Origin: a virus | IMG/VR virus record: IMGVR_UViG_3300042991_000780 | Location: 31,173 to 95,172 of that record | DNA: 64,000 nt | Reading direction: 5' to 3' (one strand) | Shown here: positions 674 to 8,484 of the stretch, one piece after another | How the letters are laid out: every line of letters starts with the position of its first letter | How positions within the stretch are numbered: the first letter of the stretch is position 1 | The notes under the pieces: generated by a model | Seen by the model: only the letters and a program-made list of their open reading frames with translations | Told to the model about the DNA's origin: nothing | Database searches by the model: none | Position numbers and translations under genes: made by a program

Positions 674-1774
674 CTAAAGAGTAAACCTATCTTGTTTACG
701 AGCCTTTTTACGAAGTTCGTTTACTGTTCTGAGAGCATCTGGATCAAATCTTTCCCTTTTAACGACACTCACCATATGGTTGAATTCGTTTTCGGTGATA
801 ACCTGACCAATATATCCTTCGGTCTTGAGTACATAACTCTTTGGTGCTTTACTTGAAGCAGAAGGGTTACCTTCTGTATCAAGAGTTGCTTCAAAGGTCA
901 ACTCAAGAAGTTCCTGAATCTTTTCCTGAACACTTGCGGTCATACCCTGTTTTGTTTTCTTCAATGACCTTTCAAGCAAATCAACAATATTTTCCTGATG
1001 CTTTACTTTCAACTCATTATAAGTTTCGGTAAAATTCTGCATTGTTGATCTATTTTTCAACTCACTGATAATTGCAAGTGAACCATAGCAGTCACGGATC
1101 ATCAAGTCCCATACCTGTTCTGCGTAAGTGAATGAAGGGAATTTGTCTATTGCAACAATTTCACCATCAACAAGTACGATGATACCGATAAGATTGCTTG
1201 GACGTTCAAAGTGAGCAATAAACTGTTCAAGTTTCTTGTCGTACTTTTCAAAGTAAACGTTCAAGTAGTTACCAGCGTTTGACTGAGTATCCTGACCCAA
1301 TTTCTGAATAGCAGGATAAATCCTATGATATGAACTTGGCTGTCCAACAGTGTCAAACACCATTTCACGCATGGTTACTGGAAGCATACGGAACTCCTGA
1401 GTACCACGAAAATGTCCGGTCTGTCCACCCTGAACACAACCAGCATCGTGATAAGTAACGTTACCGTACTTTTCAACGTAACCTGCTTTGGTCATACCAT
1501 GATTCTGAGCACTCTGCTTGGTCATAACAGCCATCTGGGTAGGAAGAATAACTTCCTTATCAGCCTTATTAGCAAAACTAATCTGACCGTAAGAACTGTT
1601 ACCAGCCTGAACCGAAGTCAATGGATTAGCAAAACGTTCATCCAAAGAATATTCCTTGTCAGTTGTCAAACATACGATCTGCATGTTCAAAATTGACTGA
1701 ACGATAATGTTACCGTTTTTGTCTTTGACTGGACGGCAACCTTTAAGCAATTCTGTAAATTCTCTTTTATTCAT
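674..1774 (-). CDS. ARPP-1/DUF6569-like protein
   Basis: Motifs QNH...CVQGGQ and IGIIVLVDGEIVAIDKFPS...W...DCYG resemble the ARPP-1 family. Lies 11 nt downstream of the vWA gene. Confidence 0.6.
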   Translation of the reverse strand: MNKREFTELLKGCRPVKDKNGNIIVQSILNMQIVCLTTDKEYSLDERFANPLTSVQAGNSSYGQISFANKADKEVILPTQMAVMTKQSAQNHGMTKAGYVEKYGNVTYHDAGCVQGGQTGHFRGTQEFRMLPVTMREMVFDTVGQPSSYHRIYPAIQKLGQDTQSNAGNYLNVYFEKYDKKLEQFIAHFERPSNLIGIIVLVDGEIVAIDKFPSFTYAEQVWDLMIRDCYGSLAIISELKNRSTMQNFTETYNELKVKHQENIVDLLERSLKKTKQGMTASVQEKIQELLELTFEATLDTEGNPSASSKAPKSYVLKTEGYIGQVITENEFNHMVSVVKRERFDPDALRTVNELRKKARKQDRFTL

Positions 1775-1785
1775 GATATGAAATA

Positions 1786-3420
1786 TTAAGCATTAATACT
1801 AATTTTTTTGTTCCTTTTAACAGGTGCTGCTTCAAGAGCAAGAACCTGATTTTCAAGCCACCTTTTGGTGTCAATTTCAAGCAACCTTGCGTTGATTTGT
1901 GGCTGCAAAGCAACGGGGTTATTTATTGCCATTGTGACAACTCCTGCACCAAGTTTCCTTACATTAGCACCCATTTCAGCACTCACGATTGGTGAAATTT
2001 GAAACATAGGTATATTTCTTCCGGTTTCTGCCTTCCAAATGTTGATAACTTCATTGGTAAGACCATCGTATGCGTTTTCGTATCCATCGGTTAAGATGAA
2101 GATTGCATCATATGGTTTTGAAGCATTTTCTGCTTTCAAAAGTCCAATAAATGAACTTGCCAAGTCAGTAACCTCACCATCAGTGTATTCAATACTGCAA
2201 CTATTGGTTGCAGATTTGCTCAATACCCTTGCGGTAAAGTCAGCAATTGCCTTTGGAGTGTTCTTTGATTCAGCCTGATGACCACTCATTGAATTACTCA
2301 TATCGACAATAATACCGATATTTGGGTAGAAGAATCCTACGATTTTCTTCTTGTCTGCAAGTTTGTCAATAGCACCCATTATTTCAGGAGTGAATTTTGT
2401 TTCATAACCTGTCTTGTAAAGTGCCAAGAAATCAGTTGCTTTTTCAAGATCAACATGTTTTTCAACACCCAACTTTGCAGTTGATTTTGTCTGACGAACC
2501 TGCTGGTTTACAGAAGTAACCTCAACATTTTTCCTAATCAAAGCCTTTGTTGCTTCTCTCTGGATTTTTGTTGACCACATTGAATGATACTGAGGATGCT
2601 TTACGCTTGAAATCAAGCCAAGCAATACTTCTTCAGGTACTTTCTTTGATGCAGTAATATCAGTCTTTGCTTTCTGATATTCACTCAAAAGAGGGAATAC
2701 ATTAGCATTAAACGTAACACCAGCATCTTTCTTGAAGATGAAAAGCATAAGTTTGAATGCTTTCATTGGATCACCATTGTAATACCTTAATATGTATTCA
2801 TTCAAAATCTTCATTTCCTTTTCAGTTCCAACAACGAATTCACCAACGTTAGCAGCCTTGCCAGTAATTGAAAGCAACACAGATGTCATTTTCTTTCCAT
2901 ATGCGTGCCTCAAAGTATCGGCAATCTTGTTACGATATTTCATTGCATAGAATTCAAGGTTTTCCTGACCCCAGATGAAGCCAAGCATGATTTTCCTTGA
3001 CCTTTCGTTGTTGATCTTTGCATTTTTCAATGAAACAAACAAACGAAGAACATATGGTAGACCACTTTCGCCAAGGTTGTTCAATGCTGAAAGCACTGCC
3101 TTATCGCTTAATCCGTTATCATACCAGTCAATTGGATTAACAATATTGCATGCTCCACCCTTTAAGGTACTTTTAAATTCATTAAACAATACCTCTGATA
3201 CGAACTGACCAGTCGCACCCTTCTGAGTTGCAACTATCAACGGGAGTTCCTTTGAAAGTTTATACAAACTCTTAACCTGAGTCTGAATAGCCTTCACCTG
3301 TTCGTCACCCTTGTGGTAATAGGTAGCACTACCTTTTGCACCACTTGCAATGGTAAGACCATCGATAAGTGACTGCTTTACCTTACTGAGCATGTTGTTT
3401 GCTAATACCAACTTTTCCAT
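1786..3420 (-). CDS. Ro60/TROVE-like protein: predicted helical N-terminal region plus C-terminal vWA domain
   Basis: MIDAS-like IIVDMSNSMSG and AIFILTDGYEN. At 544 aa, size and layout match Ro60/Rsr. The vWA call is firm and the TROVE homology is inferred. Confidence 0.6.
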   Translation of the reverse strand: MEKLVLANNMLSKVKQSLIDGLTIASGAKGSATYYHKGDEQVKAIQTQVKSLYKLSKELPLIVATQKGATGQFVSEVLFNEFKSTLKGGACNIVNPIDWYDNGLSDKAVLSALNNLGESGLPYVLRLFVSLKNAKINNERSRKIMLGFIWGQENLEFYAMKYRNKIADTLRHAYGKKMTSVLLSITGKAANVGEFVVGTEKEMKILNEYILRYYNGDPMKAFKLMLFIFKKDAGVTFNANVFPLLSEYQKAKTDITASKKVPEEVLLGLISSVKHPQYHSMWSTKIQREATKALIRKNVEVTSVNQQVRQTKSTAKLGVEKHVDLEKATDFLALYKTGYETKFTPEIMGAIDKLADKKKIVGFFYPNIGIIVDMSNSMSGHQAESKNTPKAIADFTARVLSKSATNSCSIEYTDGEVTDLASSFIGLLKAENASKPYDAIFILTDGYENAYDGLTNEVINIWKAETGRNIPMFQISPIVSAEMGANVRKLGAGVVTMAINNPVALQPQINARLLEIDTKRWLENQVLALEAAPVKRNKKISINA

Positions 3421-3458
3421 AATGACAATTTTTAATTATTAAAACTTATTTTTCATTG

Positions 3459-3492
3459 TGCAATGTTACACATTATTTTTTAATATCCAAAA
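3459..3492 (-). promoter_or_regulatory. Bacteroidota-type promoter for the vWA gene
   Basis: TTTG-N19-TAACATTG on the - strand, close to the -33 TTTG / -7 TAnnTTTG consensus. Confidence 0.5.
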
Positions 3493-3500
3493 AAATTATA

Positions 3501-3550
3501 AAAAAAATCGGGTAAGTCGATAGATTTCTCAATCAAGTCCCCACCCGATT
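3501..3550 (-). terminator. Terminator-like hairpin closing the RNA array
   Basis: AATCGGGT...ACCCGATT stem followed by TTTTT. Confidence 0.6.
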
Positions 3551-3581
3551 CGTTTTTTGGAATAACTCTTCTTCAAATTAA

Positions 3582-3675
3582 AGAAGAAGTGCGGTTGTAT
3601 TGCCTGTAGTTTGTCTCCCTTCTCACACGGGGGAGATTACATTTTTCAATTACTGTAAACACAGCCAGTTCTTCC
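3582..3675 (-). ncRNA. Scaffold RNA module M5 (hairpin cargo)
   Basis: GGAAGAAC-T-GGCTGTGTT-TACAGTAA-[TCTCCC/GGGAGA hairpin]-AATACAACC-GCAC-TTCTTC. Confidence 0.65.
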
Positions 3676-3755
3676 ATAAAAATTTATATTTTTTGAAAAA
3701 AATGCCACACACCTGTGACCAAAAAACCATTTTTAACCGTCAAATGTTAGGATTC

Positions 3756-3825
3756 CAAGTGGGGATTTGGATTAATATTACTTGATTTATCAAATTTGTC
3801 TGCAATCCGCATATCGCTCCACTTG
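3756..3825 (-). ncRNA. Possible degenerate sixth module
   Basis: CAAGTGG/CCACTTG and GGATT/AATCC stems. TTGCAGACAA sits where TTACAGTAA occurs in the others, followed by a small hairpin. Confidence 0.3.
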
Positions 3826-3834
3826 TATAATTTC

Positions 3835-3972
3835 GGGAATAATTTAAAAGTATTTGTTGTTTTTAATCAAAGTTTAAGAGACTTCTGACTTAACCGCTTG
3901 TCTATTTTTCAATTTTGGCTGAAAAAGATGGATTCGAACCACCGTATTACTGTAAACACTTTTCGTTTTCCC
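3835..3972 (-). ncRNA. Scaffold RNA module M4 containing a circularly permuted tRNA-Lys(CUU)-like cloverleaf
   Basis: Order: T arm GGTGG-TTCGAAT-CCATC, acceptor 3' strand TTTTTCA-G-CCA, linker AAAT, acceptor 5' strand TGAAAAA, D arm GAC-AAGCGGTTAA-GTC, anticodon arm GAAGT-CTCTTAA-ACTTT. The ends pair as the scaffold. Confidence 0.8.
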
Positions 3973-4001
3973 TCAATATTTTAAAGAACTTCAATAAGTT
4001 T

Positions 4002-4081
4002 AGAAGAAATTCGTTGGTCTTGTTGTCGTTATTAGTTTGATTTCAAGTCAAATTGTTACTGTAAAAACCACCAGTTCTTCT
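4002..4081 (-). ncRNA. Scaffold RNA module M3 carrying an isolated Ser(UGA)-type anticodon stem-loop
   Basis: AGAAGAAC...TGGTTTTTACAGTAA-CAA-TTTGA-CTTGAAA-TCAAA...AAGACCA...TTTCTTCT. Confidence 0.7.
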
Positions 4082-4153
4082 TTATATTTTAAATTTGTAG
4101 CAGGTTATTGTTTCAAATTTGAAATTTCAAAGTATTTATAATAAATAGTACTT

Positions 4154-4831
4154 ATGAAACCAAATTATACCGAATCTGAATTTGACACAGCAACATCTAC
4201 AAGTTTATTATCTTGTTTTTGTTATAATTGTAACACCCTTTTTAATGTAATGAAGAAAAATATTGTACAGGAATTAAAGCATAAAAGAGGAAGAATAAAA
4301 TTTTGTTCAAAGAAGTGTCATGATATTTATCAATCAAATCAAATCTCCGTTATTTGTAATAATTGCGGTAAAACATTTACTAAAATAGCATCTGAAATTA
4401 AAACAAATAATTTTTGTTCAAATTCATGCGCTGCAATATATAATAACACACATAAAACAAAAGGCAATCGTAGGTCTAAACTTGAAACATATCTTGAAAC
4501 ACAACTCGCTGCACAATTTCCAAATTTAGAAATATTATTCAACGATAAAAAAACAATTAATTCCGAACTGGATATTTACATACCCAGACTTCACCTTGCT
4601 TTTGAACTTAATGGTATTTTTCATTACGAACCTATCTATGGTCAAAATAAATTGAGTCAAATTCAAAATAATGATAATCGTAAATTTCAAGCCTGTTTAG
4701 AACAAGAAATTGAATTGTGTATTATTGATGTTTCACATCAAAAATATTTTAAAGAAAACACTTCAAAAAAGTATTTAGACATTCTCATTACAATTATAAA
4801 CAATAAGTCAATGAACATGTTAAACATTTAG
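4154..4831 (+). CDS. Zn-finger plus Vsr/DUF559-like endonuclease (free-standing homing endonuclease type)
   Basis: CxxC and FCSxxC repeats. C-terminal ELDIYIP...FELNGIFHY...DNRK. Own GTATTTAT motif at 4132. Confidence 0.7.
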   Translation: MKPNYTESEFDTATSTSLLSCFCYNCNTLFNVMKKNIVQELKHKRGRIKFCSKKCHDIYQSNQISVICNNCGKTFTKIASEIKTNNFCSNSCAAIYNNTHKTKGNRRSKLETYLETQLAAQFPNLEILFNDKKTINSELDIYIPRLHLAFELNGIFHYEPIYGQNKLSQIQNNDNRKFQACLEQEIELCIIDVSHQKYFKENTSKKYLDILITIINNKSMNMLNI

Positions 4832-4887
4832 TCAATCTATCGATTGTGCAGTAATTACCACGTGCAGGTAGTTTAACTTTAATTACT

Positions 4888-4961
4888 TAGCGGGAGATGG
4901 ATTCGAACCACCGACCTTAACGTTATGAGCGTCACGAGCTAACCACTGCTACTACCCCGCA
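4888..4961 (-). tRNA. tRNA-Met(CAU), initiator-like body with an atypical anticodon stem
   Basis: TGCGGGG-TA-GTAGCAGTGGTTAGCTC-G-TGACG-CTCATAA-CGTTA-AGGTC-GGTGG-TTCGAAT-CCATC-TCCCGCT-A. 1:72 mismatch and no encoded CCA. Confidence 0.9.
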
Positions 4962-5386
4962 ATATGTTTTTCCAATAAATCCCATGCTTCTCTATATTCA
5001 TGAGATTTTGGCTTTCTCTGTCTGGATACTTTTTCATGTAATGTTATTGAACCCGCAAATGAATTAAAAATATTAACAGGTACAACATAAAACACTTTTA
5101 GTTCTGAAATGAAAATTATTGCAAAATTAAAATCATTATTGGAATATTTTTCTCTTTTCATCACACGTCTATTTGTTTTGGTTCTTCTCACATCAATCAA
5201 ATAAACTCCTTCTTCTTTTGATAACCACGCTGACTTAACTTGTATCTTAATAAATTTATTATTAATAACAATGACCAAATCATATGGTAATCTATCACCT
5301 ACCGGAATTAAAACATCCCATCCCAATTGAAGTGCTTTTAATTGTACTTCAATCTCCGCAATATCACCTTTCATTTTAGTATCCAT
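4952..5386 (-). CDS. PD-(D/E)XK endonuclease, group I intron-associated (I-Ssp6803I/PDDEXK_5-like) family
   Basis: KGDIAE...IPVGDRLPYDLV...IQVKS...Y...DF. The stop codon overlaps the tRNA 5' end. Start taken at MDTK (alternative 5401). Confidence 0.8.
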   Translation of the reverse strand: MDTKMKGDIAEIEVQLKALQLGWDVLIPVGDRLPYDLVIVINNKFIKIQVKSAWLSKEEGVYLIDVRRTKTNRRVMKREKYSNNDFNFAIIFISELKVFYVVPVNIFNSFAGSITLHEKVSRQRKPKSHEYREAWDLLEKHIAG

Positions 5387-5411
5387 AATCTCAAAGAACA
5401 TTTAATAAGAT

Positions 5412-5549
5412 AAAAAAGGAAAATTTGTTTGTTATTTCTGTTATAAACAATGATGGAATTGAACCACCAACATTCTGCTTGACGTGCAAACACTCTAACC
5501 AGTTGAGTTAATTGTAATTTACTGTAATAACAACACCGTTTCCTTTTTT
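5412..5549 (-). ncRNA. Scaffold RNA module M2 enclosing a tRNA-Asp(GUC)-like cloverleaf (5447-5515)
   Basis: ACAAT-TA-ACTC-AACTGGTTA-GAGT-G-TTTGC-ACGTCAA-GCAGA-ATGTT-GGTGG-TTCAATT-CCATC-ATTGT, flanked by AGGAAAC..GTTATTACAGTAA and AATAAC..TTCCT. Confidence 0.75.
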
Positions 5550-5551
5550 TG

Positions 5552-5689
5552 TGGGGAGAACAGGAATCGAACCTGTAATCAATTGTGTTTAAAACAATTT
5601 GCTTTACCTTATTTACTGTAAACACTTCAAGTTCTCCCTTACGGGAGCAATGAGATAGTATTTTCGTTATTTTGATTTGCTATCTCCCC
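5552..5689 (-). ncRNA. Module M1: tRNA-like RNA with the scaffold inserted in the D arm
   Basis: 7-bp acceptor GGGGAGA/TCTCCCC and T arm ACAGG-TTCGATT-CCTGT. A ~65 nt insert AAATACT..CTCCC-GTAA-GGGAG-AAC..AGTGTTTACAGTAA lies in the D arm. Confidence 0.7.
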
Positions 5690-5732
5690 ATTTAAAAGTT
5701 TGTTCAAAGAACATTTTGTCATTCAGACGTTG

Positions 5733-5764
5733 CAAATATAAAACACCTTTTTTAATTGTGCAAG
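5733..5764 (-). promoter_or_regulatory. Bacteroidota-type promoter driving the RNA array
   Basis: CTTG-N20-TATATTTG (perfect -7 element). Confidence 0.6.
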
Positions 5765-5822
5765 CATTTTATAAAATATTTTCTAAAAAAATTAAAATAT
5801 TTTTATCTGCACGTCTGGAATA

Positions 5823-5830
5823 ATAAATAC
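5823..5830 (-). promoter_or_regulatory. Putative late promoter GTATTTAT upstream of the RNA array
   Basis: Same motif that precedes the structural genes of the window. Confidence 0.55.
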
Positions 5831-5869: not shown

Positions 5870-7777
5870 TTAATCTTTTTTCATAATATCCTGACTCTTA
5901 GCATTTTTGCGGATATGTTCAAGTACACTTAAAACATTACTATTATCACTTTCAAGACTATCTGGATCAGTTAAAATAATTTTATTTTCTTTTGGTAATT
6001 GTGGTTTTTCTTCTTCAATTATGATAAGATCATCAGTTTTTACCACTGGAATTTCACCAGTAAGTTCAGTTTTTGTCTCACCACTCTCGCCATTCCAGTC
6101 AAAATAATCACCACTTGGTTTAATATTTTCATTATTGGTCATTATAATCGGTTGTAATGTTTCGGGAATTTCTGAGACATTACCTGTAACAATAAGTGGT
6201 TCTTTTTCAACCTTTGGTACTTCAACGTATTCCCTATTCCACGCTGCCTTAAATTCCTCAAGTTCATTTTTCTTTTCAATTATAACATCATCATTAACAT
6301 TATCCAGATGATCCGCATATTTTTCCGATATGACTTGAGCAATTTTTTGTTGCGATGATACTTTATTTGCAATATCTTCAATATTTTCAACATCAGTAGT
6401 CTTAATACCAGTTGTTTTAATTGGATACCTTTCATCTTCAATAACAATTTCCATTGTATCATTATTGAACCTACTATCCCTAAAAGTTTGACCATCTTGT
6501 GCAAATCTTGCTTTTATTATTCTGATGTTTGCAAGACCTGCTTCTTTCTGATCTGCAGTTTTTGCAACTGACATAAAGAAGTGTGCTTTTTGAACACGTT
6601 TAATGCTACCACCAGTTTGGTATGCTTCAACATATTCTGAATCAAATCCACTTCTGTTTGTCTGTATTGCAGTCCATGCCGGAATGTTAAAATCGGCAGC
6701 AAGTGCTTCAAACGATTTAATAACCTGAAGTTCTGCTTCCGTTCTATCAGTTGTTTTCTTATTTGATTCAAGACAATCAAGATAATCAACAATAAGCATA
6801 TCAAACTTAAAACCCCATTTTTTCTCGTAACGAATCATCCAGTTCCTAATGTCAGTCATTGTTGTATTTTCCTGACTAAACTTCTTTATTACAAGATGTC
6901 CCTTACCATTTAATTTTTGTTTCTTTTGTTCAACTTTCTCAGCAACTTCGCTTAGATGTTCATCCATTTTACTTAATTGAACACCAGTCCATATGGTAAA
7001 ATGTTTTCTCTGTATTTGTTCTATCGTATCCTCAAAAACTATTTGTGCAACATTTTTCCCGGCAAAATCATATGCAGTATTTGCAATTTTGGTAAGCATC
7101 GTAGTTTTCCCAACCCCGGATGGTGTTAATATAACACCAATTTCACCCTTACCAAGACCACCATCAGTTACAATATCAATAACACGAATACCTGTTGGTA
7201 TTGTCTGACGGAATTCTTTTCTCAATACTCTATCGATGTTATCAATTACTTCAGTTCCAAAATCTTCTTCTTCTCCAATATGTGATATTTTCAGTAGTTT
7301 TTCATCAATCTCACCAAGTACATGTTTTTTTCGTATTTCTCCAGTTTTTGTTTTATCAATTATAAATTCAGCAAATTTTCTCCATTCTTGTTGTTTAATG
7401 AATGTTGTTGTTGTCTTTCGAATAGCCTCACCGTCATAATCAAGTTCCTTGTTAATGATTCGTTCATTCCATAATTGAACTTTCTTTATTACGGCAAATA
7501 ACGATTCTTCCTCAATCTGATTGTTGGGTGCTTTAAATTGATTGATTGCTTGTTGAATACTTTGATTCTGTAAATTTGGTACTTTACCAAATTCTTTATA
7601 ATACTCCAATATTATAATGAAGAGTCTCCTATAATTTGGATCATCAAAATATTCAACAGATAAATTAGATAATGTTTTTTCGGCAAACTCTGGTTCGACA
7701 AGCAATTGCCACATAAGACGCAATTGAAATTCCGGTCCGAGATATGCCGTAAATGTATTTTCTGTAACTTCTGCCAT
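5870..7777 (-). CDS. Replicative DNA helicase (DnaB/T4 gp41-like) with a long acidic C-terminal extension
   Basis: Walker A TPSGVGKTT, LIVDYLD, WTAIQTNR, IIKARF. Confidence 0.9.
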   Translation of the reverse strand: MAEVTENTFTAYLGPEFQLRLMWQLLVEPEFAEKTLSNLSVEYFDDPNYRRLFIIILEYYKEFGKVPNLQNQSIQQAINQFKAPNNQIEEESLFAVIKKVQLWNERIINKELDYDGEAIRKTTTTFIKQQEWRKFAEFIIDKTKTGEIRKKHVLGEIDEKLLKISHIGEEEDFGTEVIDNIDRVLRKEFRQTIPTGIRVIDIVTDGGLGKGEIGVILTPSGVGKTTMLTKIANTAYDFAGKNVAQIVFEDTIEQIQRKHFTIWTGVQLSKMDEHLSEVAEKVEQKKQKLNGKGHLVIKKFSQENTTMTDIRNWMIRYEKKWGFKFDMLIVDYLDCLESNKKTTDRTEAELQVIKSFEALAADFNIPAWTAIQTNRSGFDSEYVEAYQTGGSIKRVQKAHFFMSVAKTADQKEAGLANIRIIKARFAQDGQTFRDSRFNNDTMEIVIEDERYPIKTTGIKTTDVENIEDIANKVSSQQKIAQVISEKYADHLDNVNDDVIIEKKNELEEFKAAWNREYVEVPKVEKEPLIVTGNVSEIPETLQPIIMTNNENIKPSGDYFDWNGESGETKTELTGEIPVVKTDDLIIIEEEKPQLPKENKIILTDPDSLESDNSNVLSVLEHIRKNAKSQDIMKKD

Positions 7778-7881
7778 TTTAAAATTTTCTTATAAAAAGG
7801 CAGTTGTTGCTATATATGAAATATGAAAATGAAGTATCAAAAACAAAGATTCACGCAACAACCGCCCAATATCAAACAGAC

Positions 7882-8484
7882 TTAGTTTTTCCTAAGTCTT
7901 CTCAACATCTCTTCTCTCTTAGCCGGAGAAAGTTCTCTGATCTGATTAATGGATAAACCTTTAATATTAATCAAATCATAATCGTCCCACATGTTTTTAA
8001 TATCGTTCCTTTTAATAAGATTGAAAATGTTATCAGCAACATCAACAACAGCATTAACCATATCGGCAGAAAATTTTGCAACCGGATTAAATCCGTCAAC
8101 ATAAAACATTCTTTCAACAATTGGTTTATCATTAATATAAAAACCAATTTTACATTCAACACCCCTAATTGTTTTATCTTCAATTTGTTGTACGATTGGT
8201 GTTGGATTATAATACATTTCTTTTCTCCACTCCTGCGGATATTTGCTAATCATCTTCTGATTATGTTGAAAAAAATCGAGTTCATTTGAAAACTGAGTTT
8301 CATATGATCGCTTCGATAATACCTTTTGTATTCTGGTGATTGCTTTTGGAAGAATTTCTCTTATGTCAATTGAATACCTTGTGAAAGGATTAAACTGATC
8401 GGCACTAAACACTTTTTCACACATCAACGTATTTTCCTGATATAGTGAAAACCTAAACATGTTATTAAATTCTTTCTCGTTCAT
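7882..8484 (-). CDS. Hypothetical protein
   Basis: 200-aa ORF in the replication block. TATATTTG promoter element at 8519-8526. Confidence 0.6.
   Translation of the reverse strand: MNEKEFNNMFRFSLYQENTLMCEKVFSADQFNPFTRYSIDIREILPKAITRIQKVLSKRSYETQFSNELDFFQHNQKMISKYPQEWRKEMYYNPTPIVQQIEDKTIRGVECKIGFYINDKPIVERMFYVDGFNPVAKFSADMVNAVVDVADNIFNLIKRNDIKNMWDDYDLINIKGLSINQIRELSPAKREEMLRRLRKN

What the first reader, a model, noticed from the sequence alone, without database searches (positions are those of the whole stretch)
674..5830. Candidate new RNP system: Ro60-like vWA protein + ARPP-1 protein + array of modular tRNA-mimic RNAs on one shared scaffold
Seen: between the helicase and the vWA gene, the - strand carries five copies of an invariant UUACAGUAA (plus-strand ttactgtaa at 3650, 3947, 4056, 5519, 5613). 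Each sits in the same fold: purine-rich outer stem, AAC, internal loop, inner stem ending in UU, ACAGUAA, variable cargo, A/C-rich linker, complementary strands. The stem sequences differ between copies but still pair, mostly with G-U rather than A-C on the - strand, which points to RNA. The cargo differs each time: a tRNA attached via its D arm (M1), a tRNA-Asp-like body via its acceptor (M2), a bare Ser anticodon loop (M3), a permuted tRNA-Lys via its variable loop (M4) and a hairpin (M5). Directly downstream are a 544-aa protein with a C-terminal vWA (MIDAS) domain and an ARPP-1-like protein. Known: bacterial Ro60/Rsr (TROVE+vWA, ~540 aa) binds adjacently encoded Y RNAs made of a Ro-binding stem plus a tRNA-like module (YrlA). 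Inference: a divergent phage Ro/Y-like system in which one protein-binding handle displays a library of tRNA parts, for example as decoys for host anticodon nucleases or as substrates for tRNA repair/processing. I do not recognise this scaffold as the canonical Y RNA stem.
Basis: partly seen in the sequence, partly recalled or inferred. Interest (0 to 1): 0.95.

Follow-up and report, generated by a model that had tools for sequence, protein, structure and literature searches.

The report
Phage Ro60-like protein, tRNA-mimic RNA array
An uncultured tailed phage encodes a very diverged relative of the ring-shaped RNA-binding protein Ro60, and just upstream five small RNAs that mount tRNA look-alikes on one shared "handle"; this is most likely an undescribed branch of the known Ro60/Y-RNA particles.

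Summary
UUACAGUAA occurs five times on the minus strand between the helicase and the 544-aa gene, against about one expected by chance. Each copy sits in the same two-helix handle.

- **Protein:** it has no Pfam or PDB sequence match, but its model aligns over its full length with Ro60 (Z 18.4) and keeps the MIDAS motif.
- **Synteny:** 73 related viral contigs keep the order helicase, RNA array, Ro60-like gene, ARPP-1 gene. They carry about 330 handles on the gene's strand and about 8 on the other.
- **Deep conservation:** a 462-kb phage whose protein is only 27% identical keeps the handles, the protein and ARPP-1 together.
- **RNA structure:** covariation is strong. In the permuted-tRNA module 98.5% of cells pair, against 81% when shuffled.
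- **Inside-out module:** one module carries the handle as a capped hairpin in a tRNA's D loop.
- **Anticodon loops:** they are among the most variable parts of the modules and often lack U33, so many are mimics rather than decoders.

Best reading: a divergent phage Ro60/Y-RNA particle of the YrlA kind. It has a new handle, several RNAs and a new ARPP-1 partner. Binding, processing and function are untested. This scan has noted the same system on other phage DNA. I found no paper on it in the library searched.

The parts
674..1774 (-). ARPP-1 family gene (366 aa), 11 nt downstream of the Ro60-like gene
   Evidence: Pfam PF20208 at E 4.8e-14, 52.8 bits against a cut-off of 27. It follows the Ro60-like gene in every related locus long enough to show it, and also in LR756500.1 at 29.7% identity. 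C113 and Q115 are invariant in 23 homologues.
1786..3420 (-). Ro60-like gene (544 aa): helical-repeat ring plus a C-terminal vWA domain with MIDAS
   Evidence: AF2 model with pLDDT 89.6. The top 12 Foldseek hits are all Ro60/Rsr. VIA gives Z 18.4 with 408 residues aligned over 15-513. D373, S375, S377 and D445 are conserved in 48 homologues. No Pfam TROVE hit and no PDB sequence hit.
3501..3550 (-). Hairpin followed by a U run after M5; likely terminator of the RNA array
   Evidence: Read directly from the sequence: AAUCGGGU...ACCCGAUUUUUUU. The simple terminator scan did not call it.
3580..3675 (-). M5 (type E): handle closing a G+C-rich hairpin; motif at 3650-3658
   Evidence: Duplex of -14.2 kcal/mol with its own 3' strand. 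The orthologous hairpins covary, for example CUCCCCC/GGGGAG against CCCGUCC/GGCGGG.
3676..3832 (-). X element: a variable 5' stem-loop, a conserved block (CCUAACAUUUGA ... GGUUAAGAAUGGUUUUU) and a terminator-like hairpin at 3704-3719
   Evidence: The block is invariant or nearly so in 23 loci at the same place. Terminator-like site. An RNA-library contig matches 3677-3811 exactly. Its role is unknown.
3833..3972 (-). M4 (type D): handle attached at the variable-loop position of a complete circularly permuted tRNA (T arm, acceptor 3' strand, GCCA, AAAU linker, acceptor 5' strand, D arm, anticodon arm CUCUUAA); motif at 3947-3955
   Evidence: Alignment of 42 orthologues. RNAalifold recovers the handle and all four tRNA helices, and 23 of 35 pairs show compensatory changes. 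98.5% of cells pair, against 81.2% shuffled and 38-55% slid.
4000..4081 (-). M3 (type C): handle closing only an anticodon-arm-like hairpin (UUUGA / CUUGAAA / UCAAA); motif at 4056-4064
   Evidence: Fold and duplex. Orthologues keep the hairpin while the loop changes.
4887..4962 (-). Ordinary tRNA-Met (CAU) inside the array, without a handle
   Evidence: ARAGORN and Rfam tRNA at 33.2 bits. In many relatives its 3' end directly precedes the type C module.
5406..5544 (-). M2 (type B): handle extending the acceptor end of a tRNA-like body (loop ACGUCAA, C at position 33); motif at 5519-5527; follows M1 after 7 nt
   Evidence: Rfam tRNA at 44.5 bits with the two top acceptor pairs mismatched. Duplex of -14.0 kcal/mol. 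Orthologues score up to 62 bits as tRNA but have no free NCCA end.
5552..5689 (-). M1 (type A): tRNA-like RNA with a normal 7-bp acceptor (GGGGAGA/UCUCCCC, then A) and the handle inserted inside-out, as a GUAA-capped hairpin, in the D loop; motif at 5613-5621
   Evidence: Alignment of 46 sequences. Two subfamilies show compensatory changes in the inner stem, which pairs with the upstream strand. Upstream duplex of -15.0 kcal/mol. Partial Rfam tRNA hit at 26.5 bits.
5735..5762 (-). Promoter-like site ahead of the array
   Evidence: Consensus scan, 9 of 12 matches, which is no better than the shuffled background, so this is weak. A-T-rich TAAAAT/TATAAAT boxes lie 1-10 nt before M1, M3, M4 and M5.

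Best explanation
This locus most likely encodes a phage Ro60/Y-RNA-type ribonucleoprotein. The 544-aa protein is a sequence-diverged Ro60, made of a TROVE-like helical ring and a vWA domain with an intact MIDAS site.

The five small RNAs upstream on the same strand are its Y-RNA-like partners. Each has two parts.

1. A constant handle. It consists of a 5-7-bp purine-rich outer stem, an asymmetric internal loop with an invariant AAC, and a 7-10-bp inner stem with a conserved G-U pair that ends in U-U. Next comes ACAGUAA, which faces an A/C-rich strand. I take this handle to be the protein-binding module.
2. A variable module that copies all or part of a tRNA. I take it to be the effector or target-binding module, as in YrlA.

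The handle joins the tRNA body at a different point in each RNA: D loop, acceptor end, anticodon arm alone, or variable loop. This shows the handle is a self-contained structural unit.

The anticodon loop is among the most variable parts, and 26-40% of the loops lack U33. The loop therefore looks like the business end of a mimic, not of a decoding tRNA. I think the particle most likely acts in tRNA-centred phage-host conflict. It could bind or titrate host enzymes that recognise tRNA anticodon arms, or it could bring Ro60 and the ARPP-1 enzyme to damaged tRNAs.

Shown here: the protein fold, the RNA structures, the strand specificity and the conserved three-way linkage. Inferred: binding of the handle by the protein, the role of ARPP-1, and the biological function.
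For: - **Protein fold:** the model is confident (pLDDT 89.6). All 12 significant Foldseek hits are Ro60/Rsr, including Thermus phage phiLo Ro60. VIA gives Z 18.4 with 408 residues aligned over 15-513, well above the next class, which is vWA domains alone at Z about 10. MIDAS residues are conserved.
- **Linkage in close relatives:** all 73 related viral loci keep helicase, RNA array, Ro60-like gene, ARPP-1. The exact motif occurs 147 times on the gene's strand against 17 on the other, nearly all within 2.5 kb upstream. The relaxed handle occurs about 330 times against about 8.
- **Linkage at depth:** LR756500.1 (462 kb) has the protein at 27.5% identity, ARPP-1 at 29.7% identity, and at least 4 handle modules 1.5-3 kb upstream on the same strand.
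- **RNA structure:** cognate handle duplexes average -13.5 kcal/mol, against -9.8 for shuffled partners and -10.4 for partners of another type, p about 1e-24. Several stem positions show multiple pair types. Type D pairs in 98.5% of cells with a covariation score of 0.442 against 0.124, and 0 of 500 shuffles reach it.
- **Inside-out topology** in type A.
- **Concerted motif change:** motif position 3 (A or U) varies in step across module types within a genome, 0.668 against 0.539, 0 of 2000 permutations.
- **Mimicry:** loops are diverse while stems are constant, and U33 is present in only 60-74%.
- **Precedent:** Y RNAs lie within 4 kb of Ro60 on the same strand. YrlA has the order 5' stem, V, T, acceptor-like stem-loop, D, 3' stem. 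Phages carry such pairs (PMC4201824, PMC12135203).
Against: - No binding, transcript-end or processing data exist. The only expression hint is short contigs in two metatranscriptome libraries over 3677-3969, which could be DNA carry-over.
- The protein has no detectable sequence similarity to Ro60, even with a 48-sequence profile at E up to 10, so homology rests on fold and architecture.
- The handle lacks the GNCGAAN0-1G / GGUCCGA Ro-binding motif of known Y RNAs, and Rfam YrlA gives only a chimeric 22.9-bit match against a cut-off of 69.
- Some cargos are good tRNAs: up to 62 bits, canonical loops, encoded NCCA. They might be released and used in translation.
- The concerted-variation test ignores the relatedness of the loci.
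Confidence: 0.72

Rival explanations
1. The modules are precursors of working phage tRNAs, and the handle is a processing or splicing signal. It would be a leader-trailer helix cut away from type B, excised from the D loop of type A, and cut and religated in type D so that the permuted tRNA circularises and is reopened at the acceptor, as happens for permuted tRNA genes of red algae. In this reading the Ro60-like and ARPP-1 proteins are either the processing machinery or unrelated neighbours.
For: M4 is a complete cloverleaf with a canonical CUCUUAA loop and GCCA after the acceptor 3' strand, and many orthologues keep NCCA there. Type B bodies score up to 62 bits as tRNA. Anticodons in relatives include UCA and UUA, which could act as suppressors. 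An ordinary tRNA-Met sits in the same array.
Against: - Types C and E carry no tRNA body, yet have the same handle and are as conserved.
- U33, near-universal in decoding tRNAs by established knowledge, is missing from 26-40% of loops.
- One body carries many anticodons, including ones that in bacteria belong to long-variable-arm tRNAs.
- A third of type D acceptors are closed by a 4-5-nt loop without CCA.
- In type B the acceptor helix is 4-7 bp and partly made of the motif itself.
- Bacteria are not known to have a protein tRNA-splicing endonuclease (established knowledge), and none was seen in the locus.
- The closest known parallel, YrlA, has the same permuted order and is not a tRNA precursor (PMC4201824).
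Confidence: 0.13
2. The RNAs are real structured RNAs, but their partner is not the Ro60-like protein. The handle would be bound by ARPP-1, by a host protein, or would act purely as RNA (for example as a stabilising or tertiary-docking element). The Ro60-like gene would be a conserved neighbour that acts on other RNAs.
For: No direct evidence links the handle to the ring. The handle lacks the known Ro-binding motif. ARPP-1 is linked just as tightly. The GNRA cap on the type A handle could be a tertiary-contact element.
Against: The Ro60 fold together with same-strand upstream tRNA-like RNAs closed by a terminal stem is the defining arrangement of all known bacterial and phage Ro60/Y RNA loci (PMC4201824, PMC12135203). 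The three parts stay together at 27% protein identity.
Confidence: 0.1
3. The repeats are DNA-level features. They would be near-palindromic TTACNGTAA protein-binding sites, or terminal inverted repeats of small mobile cassettes in a region that also holds two homing-endonuclease-like genes.
For: TTAC-N-GTAA is an imperfect palindrome. The flanking stems look like inverted repeats around a variable cargo. A PD-(D/E)XK gene and a zinc-finger endonuclease-like gene lie in the array.
Against: All copies point the same way, about 330 against about 8. The stems keep pairing through compensatory changes and rely on G-U pairs that would be C-A on the other strand. In type A the two 'repeat' arms are swapped and capped by a tetraloop, which makes sense only for RNA. 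Module types are orthologous and syntenic, not scattered.
Confidence: 0.03

Closest known systems
Bacterial and mycobacteriophage Rsr (Ro60) with YrlA-type Y RNAs (Rfam RF02553; Chen et al. 2014, PMC4201824)
   Same: A Ro60-fold protein (ring plus vWA) whose partner RNAs are encoded within a few kb on the same strand. The RNA has a terminal stem with an internal loop plus a tRNA-like domain. The tRNA-like domain runs in permuted order, T arm, acceptor-like stem-loop, D arm, as in M4.
   Different: - The protein is not detectable as TROVE by sequence.
- The handle has AAC and ACAGUAA in place of GNCGAAN0-1G.
- M4 keeps a full anticodon arm, and the handle leaves from the variable-loop position rather than replacing the anticodon stem.
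- There are five module types instead of one or two, including a handle inserted in a D loop and handles that carry only a hairpin.
- The gene partner is ARPP-1, not RtcB/RtcA.
Thermus phage phiLo Ro60 with Yrl1 and Yrl2 (PMC12135203; PDB 9KOP, 9L5Y)
   Same: A phage-encoded Ro60 with Y-RNA-like genes directly upstream. It is a structural match to the model here (Z 14.9).
   Different: The phiLo RNAs were picked by a CGAA motif in a stem-bulge-stem and are not described as tRNA chimeras. No ARPP-1 partner is reported. The paper's proposed function is hijacking of host PNPase, which I did not test here.
Metazoan and Deinococcus Ro60 with Y RNAs (PDB 1YVP, 2I91, 2NVO)
   Same: Best structural matches over the whole protein (Z 12-18). 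The general logic of a ring protein gated or tethered by a small RNA whose 5' and 3' ends pair.
   Different: About 14% identity in the structural alignment. The conserved Y RNA helix (GGUCCGA with a bulged C) is absent, and those Y RNAs have no tRNA cargo with an anticodon arm.
Circularly permuted tRNA genes of Cyanidioschyzon merolae and some other algae and archaea
   Same: In M4 the 3' half of the tRNA precedes the 5' half, joined by a short linker after CCA, with leader and trailer pairing.
   Different: Those genes rely on a bulge-helix-bulge motif and the archaeal/eukaryal splicing endonuclease plus a ligase to make a circular intermediate. Here the flanks form a long conserved two-helix handle that is shared with non-tRNA cargos, in a phage of bacteria.

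Membership tests
Ro60 / TROVE-vWA proteins | Ring of helical (HEAT-like) repeats followed by a vWA domain, about 500-540 aa | tested here: met
   Predicted structure has pLDDT 89.6. Full-length alignment to Ro60 chains gives Z 18.4, rmsd 4.3 A, 408 residues over 15-513. All 12 significant Foldseek hits are Ro60/Rsr.
Ro60 / TROVE-vWA proteins | Sequence signature of the TROVE domain (Pfam PF05731) | tested here: not met
   No Pfam hit for the protein at E up to 10, and none in 48 homologues. A profile of the 48 finds no Ro60 chain in the PDB at E up to 10.
Ro60 / TROVE-vWA proteins | MIDAS motif (DxSxS ... D) in the vWA domain | tested here: met
   D373, S377 and D445 are invariant and S375 nearly so in 48 homologues.
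Ro60 / TROVE-vWA proteins | Binds a Y RNA on the outer surface of the ring | not testable with these tools
   Needs EMSA, pull-down or a complex structure. Only the genomic linkage was shown.
YrlA-type Y RNA (Rfam RF02553) | Scores at or above the family's gathering threshold (69 bits) | tested here: not met
   No hit at gathering in the window or in 11 related loci. The only hit is 22.9 bits and joins the T arm of M1 to the D arm of M2.
YrlA-type Y RNA (Rfam RF02553) | GNCGAAN0-1G motif near the 5' end (proposed Ro-binding site, PMC4201824) | tested here: not met
   The 5' strands read RRRAAC plus 9-10 nt plus UUACAGUAA. M4 has AACGAAAAG, but relatives have AACUGAAAG or AACUUAAAG. CGAA occurs on the 3' strand of some handles and alternates with CAAA.
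YrlA-type Y RNA (Rfam RF02553) | 5' and 3' ends pair into a stem with an internal loop, and the interior is a tRNA-like domain in the order T arm, acceptor-like stem-loop, D arm | tested here: met
   Type D (M4) has this, supported by covariation in 42 sequences. Types A, B, C and E depart from it.
YrlA-type Y RNA (Rfam RF02553) | Encoded within about 4 kb of the Ro60 gene on the same strand | tested here: met
   All five modules lie 160-2270 nt upstream on the same strand. The same holds in 73 loci and in LR756500.1.
Circularly permuted tRNA genes processed by splicing | Bulge-helix-bulge motif formed by leader and trailer at the junction | tested here: not met
   Read directly from the fold. 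The flanks form a 5-bp stem, a 4-nt/6-nt internal loop and a 10-bp stem, then ACAGUAA facing an A/C-rich strand. They do not form two 3-nt bulges around a 4-bp helix.
ARPP-1 (Pfam PF20208) | Match above the curated cut-off; conserved Cys and Gln proposed as catalytic (PMC9503650) | tested here: met
   52.8 bits against a cut-off of 27. C113 and Q115 are invariant in 23 homologues. I did not check that they map onto the family's Cys and Gln.

The most novel reading that the evidence does not exclude
The particle is a counter-defence device. A Ro60-like ring would carry a set of tRNA and anticodon-arm decoys whose loops evolve fast to match, trap or report host anticodon nucleases and other tRNA-targeting toxins. 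ARPP-1 would act as a new RNA-end or ribose-modifying enzyme on the captured or damaged RNA. That would give Ro60/Y RNA particles a defined role in phage-host conflict and explain why Y RNAs mimic tRNA.
Probability: 0.2. Interest if true: 0.85.

Novelty: new variant of a known kind. Interest (0 to 1): 0.64.

Why it matters
It is still unclear what bacterial and phage Ro60/Y RNA particles do, or why Y RNAs imitate tRNA. This family helps on both questions.

- **A hidden branch:** this Ro60 branch is invisible to sequence searches. All homologues I saw are annotated as hypothetical, and there are more than 300 clusters at 50% identity.
- **Parts that can be dissected:** one constant handle carries interchangeable tRNA parts. 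The handle can be attached at four different points of the tRNA, or inserted inside-out, and the anticodon loops are free to vary. This marks the handle as the likely protein-binding unit and the anticodon arm as a likely functional surface, and both can be tested by mutation.
- **A new candidate partner:** the fixed ARPP-1 partner nominates an enzyme for Ro60-linked RNA metabolism.
- **An annotation problem:** tRNA finders miss or mis-call these genes. ARAGORN found only 1 of the 4 tRNA-shaped RNAs here.

Tried and rejected
- **Sequence searches for the 544-aa protein** gave nothing usable. Pfam, NCBIfam, PHROGs, PADLOC and PDB sequences returned no hit or only sub-threshold noise. Only the fold comparison identified it.
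- **ARPP-1 structure:** the model was poor (pLDDT 63.5), and Foldseek found no match with E up to 0.001. I draw no conclusion about its fold.
- **Nucleotide search of GenBank phages** with the RNA region hit only generic tRNA-Met genes.
- **Pattern scans:** I scanned bacterial/archaeal genomes and IMG/VR for AAC-N5-GT-N-TTTACAGTAA.
  - Of the 120 genome hits, 15 had a purine run before AAC, and none had the Ro60-like gene, ARPP-1 or the helicase nearby, so they look like chance matches.
  - Among viral hits with a handle-like context, 41 of 51 had a syntenic gene.
  - This is not a census.
- **Self-cleaving ribozyme or group I intron for the handle:** I considered both. No Rfam family matched, and I could not find the core motifs I recall for hammerhead or hairpin ribozymes by eye. 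This was not tested further.
- **crAss-like identity:** I looked for it. The genome encodes a tail sheath, so the phage has a contractile tail. It was not classified further.
- **Expression:** short contigs in two RNA libraries cover 3677-3811 (exact match) and 3714-3969 (4 differences). There were no raw reads and no strand or end information, and DNA carry-over cannot be excluded.
- **Pairing between X and M5:** I checked by eye whether the conserved block of the X element pairs with the M5 cargo. It gives only 6-7 bp, so I dropped the idea.

Full report
**Where it is.** The window is part of a 95-kb, 32% G+C contig that encodes a tail sheath, a DnaB-like helicase and an exonuclease. It is therefore a tailed phage with a contractile tail. 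All features discussed lie on the minus strand, in this order:
- DnaB-like helicase, 5870-7777.
- A 2.4-kb stretch with few ORFs, 3440-5830.
- A 544-aa gene, 1786-3420.
- An ARPP-1 family gene, 674-1774 (Pfam PF20208, E 4.8e-14).

**The observation.** TTACTGTAA occurs on the plus strand at 3650, 3947, 4056, 5519 and 5613, plus once inside an ORF at 75. About one copy is expected by chance, and no shuffle reached six. In the whole genome only these five copies have the context RRRAAC, 9-10 nt, UUACAGUAA.

Each 5' strand pairs with its own partner strand at about -14 kcal/mol, against -7.9 kcal/mol on average for partners of the other copies. The common anatomy is:
- a 5-7-bp purine-rich outer stem;
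- an asymmetric internal loop that begins with an invariant AAC;
- a 7-10-bp inner stem that ends in U-U;
- ACAGUAA, then the cargo, then an A/C-rich strand, then the returning strands.

**The protein is a hidden Ro60.** Sequence methods give nothing. There is no hit in Pfam, NCBIfam, PHROGs or PADLOC, and none among PDB sequences, even with a 48-sequence profile at E up to 10. More than 300 cluster representatives exist, and all those with a name are 'hypothetical'.

The predicted structure is confident (pLDDT 89.6, pTM 0.87). All twelve significant Foldseek matches are Ro60/Rsr chains from frog, human, Deinococcus and Thermus phage phiLo. The second-look aligner gives Z 18.4 with 408 residues aligned across residues 15-513. 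The next class of hits is isolated vWA domains at Z about 10. The MIDAS residues D373, S375, S377 and D445 are conserved. The protein meets the fold and architecture criteria for Ro60 but not the sequence signature.

**Linkage.** A protein-guided scan of IMG/VR returned 73 loci with 59-90% identical proteins.
- Every locus long enough shows helicase, RNA array, Ro60-like gene, ARPP-1 gene.
- The exact 9-mer occurs 147 times on the gene's strand and 17 times on the other, almost always within 2.5 kb upstream.
- With two substitutions allowed in the handle context, there are about 330 forward hits against about 8 reverse hits.
- So the 9-mer is not invariant. UUUCAGUAA, AUACAGUAA, UUACAGAAA and UUACAGCAA are common, with CAG as the core.
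- The only GenBank phage with a homologue is LR756500.1, a 462-kb uncultured phage. Its protein is 27.5% identical and is again followed by an ARPP-1 gene (29.7% identity). At least four handle modules lie 1.5-3 kb upstream on the same strand, two of them with the handle inside a tRNA D loop.
- The three-way association therefore survives deep divergence.

**Five orthologous module types**.
- **Type A (M1, 5552-5689).** It has a normal 7-bp acceptor stem and discriminator, an anticodon arm and a T arm. Its D loop contains the whole handle as a hairpin: A/C-rich strand, inner 3' strand, outer 3' strand, a GNRA-type cap, outer 5' strand, AAC, inner 5' strand, ACAGUAA. This is the connectivity of the other types turned inside-out. 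Two subfamilies differ by compensatory changes in the inner stem.
- **Type B (M2, 5406-5544).** A tRNA body with a short acceptor helix, partly made of the motif's GUAA, that continues into the handle. Rfam scores these bodies at 33-62 bits as tRNA.
- **Type C (M3, 4000-4081).** Carries only a 5-bp stem with a 7-nt loop.
- **Type D (M4, 3833-3972).** A complete permuted tRNA in the order T arm, acceptor 3' strand, (N)CCA or a short loop, acceptor 5' strand, D arm, anticodon arm. The handle sits at the variable-loop position.
- **Type E (M5, 3580-3675).** Carries a covarying G+C-rich hairpin.

An ordinary tRNA-Met (4887-4962) sits in the array without a handle.

**Structure support.**
- In 42 distinct type D sequences, RNAalifold recovers the handle and all four tRNA helices, and 23 of 35 pairs show compensatory changes.
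- On that structure, 98.5% of cells are standard pairs, against 81.2% after shuffling and 38-55% when partners are slid. The covariation score is 0.442 against 0.124, and no shuffle reaches it.
- Across 176 handles, the cognate partner region pairs better than a shuffled one or one from another module type: -13.5 against -9.8 and -10.4 kcal/mol, p about 1e-24.
- Several handle positions carry three to five pair types while staying 88-100% paired. That table comes from energy-minimised duplexes and so leans towards pairing.
- A G-U pair in the inner stem is present in 110 of 186 handles and in all 42 type D sequences. It fixes the strand and is a candidate recognition point.

**Mimics rather than decoders.**
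- Within each type the tRNA body is conserved, but the 7-nt loop is not. There are 15 distinct loops in 21 type B sequences, 21 in 43 type A and 22 in 30 type D, on few stem variants.
- Position 37 is a purine in 97-100% of types A, B and D, but U33 is present in only 60-74%.
- In the type D alignment, the third loop position (column 113) has the highest entropy of all well-occupied columns.
- One body carries anticodons that would belong to many different amino acids.
- About a third of type D acceptors are closed by a 4-5-nt loop without CCA.
- These features argue against ordinary decoding for many members. They do not exclude it for some, such as M4 here.

**A shared partner.** Motif position 3 (A or U) tends to be the same across different module types within one genome: 0.668 agreement against 0.539 when permuted within type, with 0 of 2000 permutations as high. 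This fits co-evolution with one trans-acting reader or gene conversion. The test does not correct for relatedness of the loci.

**Comparison with what is known.** Chen et al. (PMC4201824) showed the following for bacterial and phage Ro60 genes:
- They have Y RNAs within 4 kb on the same strand.
- YrlA has a terminal stem with a GNCGAAN0-1G motif.
- Its tRNA-like domain runs in the order V, T, acceptor-like stem-loop, D.
- One YrlA is cut by RNase P and receives CCA.

Thermus phage phiLo Ro60 binds two upstream Y-like RNAs and forms a complex with host PNPase (PMC12135203). The present locus shares the architecture but differs in five ways:
- The protein family cannot be recognised by sequence.
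- The handle motifs are different. Rfam finds no YrlA or Y_RNA above threshold, only a chimeric 22.9-bit hit.
- The anticodon arm is retained.
- There are five module types with four attachment topologies.
- The gene partner is ARPP-1. ARPP is described only as a predicted enzyme with conserved Cys and Gln, linked to ADP-ribose and sugar chemistry (PMC9503650). I found no paper linking it to Ro60.

**Expression.** Only weak evidence is available. Contigs from two metatranscriptome studies match 3677-3811 exactly and 3714-3969 with four differences (M4 plus the X element). There is no strand or end information, and DNA carry-over is possible.

**Verdict.** The locus is best filed as a new variant of the Ro60/Y RNA kind, not as a new kind of system. 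Function is inferred. I favour a tRNA-directed role in phage-host conflict, either as decoys or as tethers for enzymes that read anticodon arms. The main rival is that the handle is a tRNA-processing signal.

Notes from this scan show that the same handle-plus-Ro60-like arrangement was seen earlier on other phage genomes. I reached the reading above before consulting the relatives' notes, and I tested its main claims independently here.

Noticed in passing
window 4952-5401 (-) and 4887-4962 (-): A PD-(D/E)XK endonuclease of the PDDEXK_5 family (Pfam E 4e-42) ends 10 nt inside the 5' end of the tRNA-Met gene. From my own knowledge, this family includes the intron-encoded I-Ssp6803I of a cyanobacterial tRNA-fMet gene. 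Only 2 of 73 related loci have this gene, so it looks like a recent mobile insertion in the array.
   Followed up: partly
window 4154-4831 (+): A 225-aa ORF on the opposite strand has zinc-finger-like repeats and matches PHROG homing/HNH endonuclease families (E 3e-14). It sits between tRNA-Met and M3, which are adjacent in many relatives. This is a second likely mobile endonuclease insertion.
   Followed up: partly
window 3676-3832 (-): Between M4 and M5 lies a sixth conserved element. It has a variable 5' stem-loop, an almost invariant block (CCUAACAUUUGA, an optional hairpin, then GGUUAAGAAUGGUUUUU) and a terminator-like hairpin. In this genome its 5' part resembles a degenerate handle (GGAUU-GCAGACAA-hairpin-AAUCC). 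Its function is unknown.
   Followed up: partly
window, 1-45 nt upstream of M1 (5689), M3 (4081), M4 (3972) and M5 (3675); also L310 1835-1865 and 2030-2055: GTTCTTT(N)AA and/or TAAAAT/TATAAAT boxes precede the first base of most modules. They recur before modules in the distant 462-kb phage. They may be module-specific promoters or processing signals. M2 has none and follows M1 after 7 nt.
   Followed up: no
related loci, type B modules (e.g. L011 3053-3197, L027 4937-5081, L030 4821-4965, L039 4385-4529): Some orthologous type B bodies have loops with UCA or UUA in the anticodon position, which would read UGA or UAA stops. I did not check whether those phages recode stop codons.
   Followed up: no
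L310 (LR756500.1) 7739-7823 and 7939-8023: Two 85-nt direct repeats (75% identical) lie in the non-coding stretch just downstream of the ARPP-1 gene of the 462-kb phage. I did not examine them.
   Followed up: no
IMG/VR contigs behind L010, L019, L022, L032, L050 and others: Close homologues of the Ro60-like gene (75-81% identity) lie on contigs of 300-365 kb, while this genome is 95 kb. Either the family spans very different genome sizes or this contig is incomplete. No terminal repeat was found.
   Followed up: no
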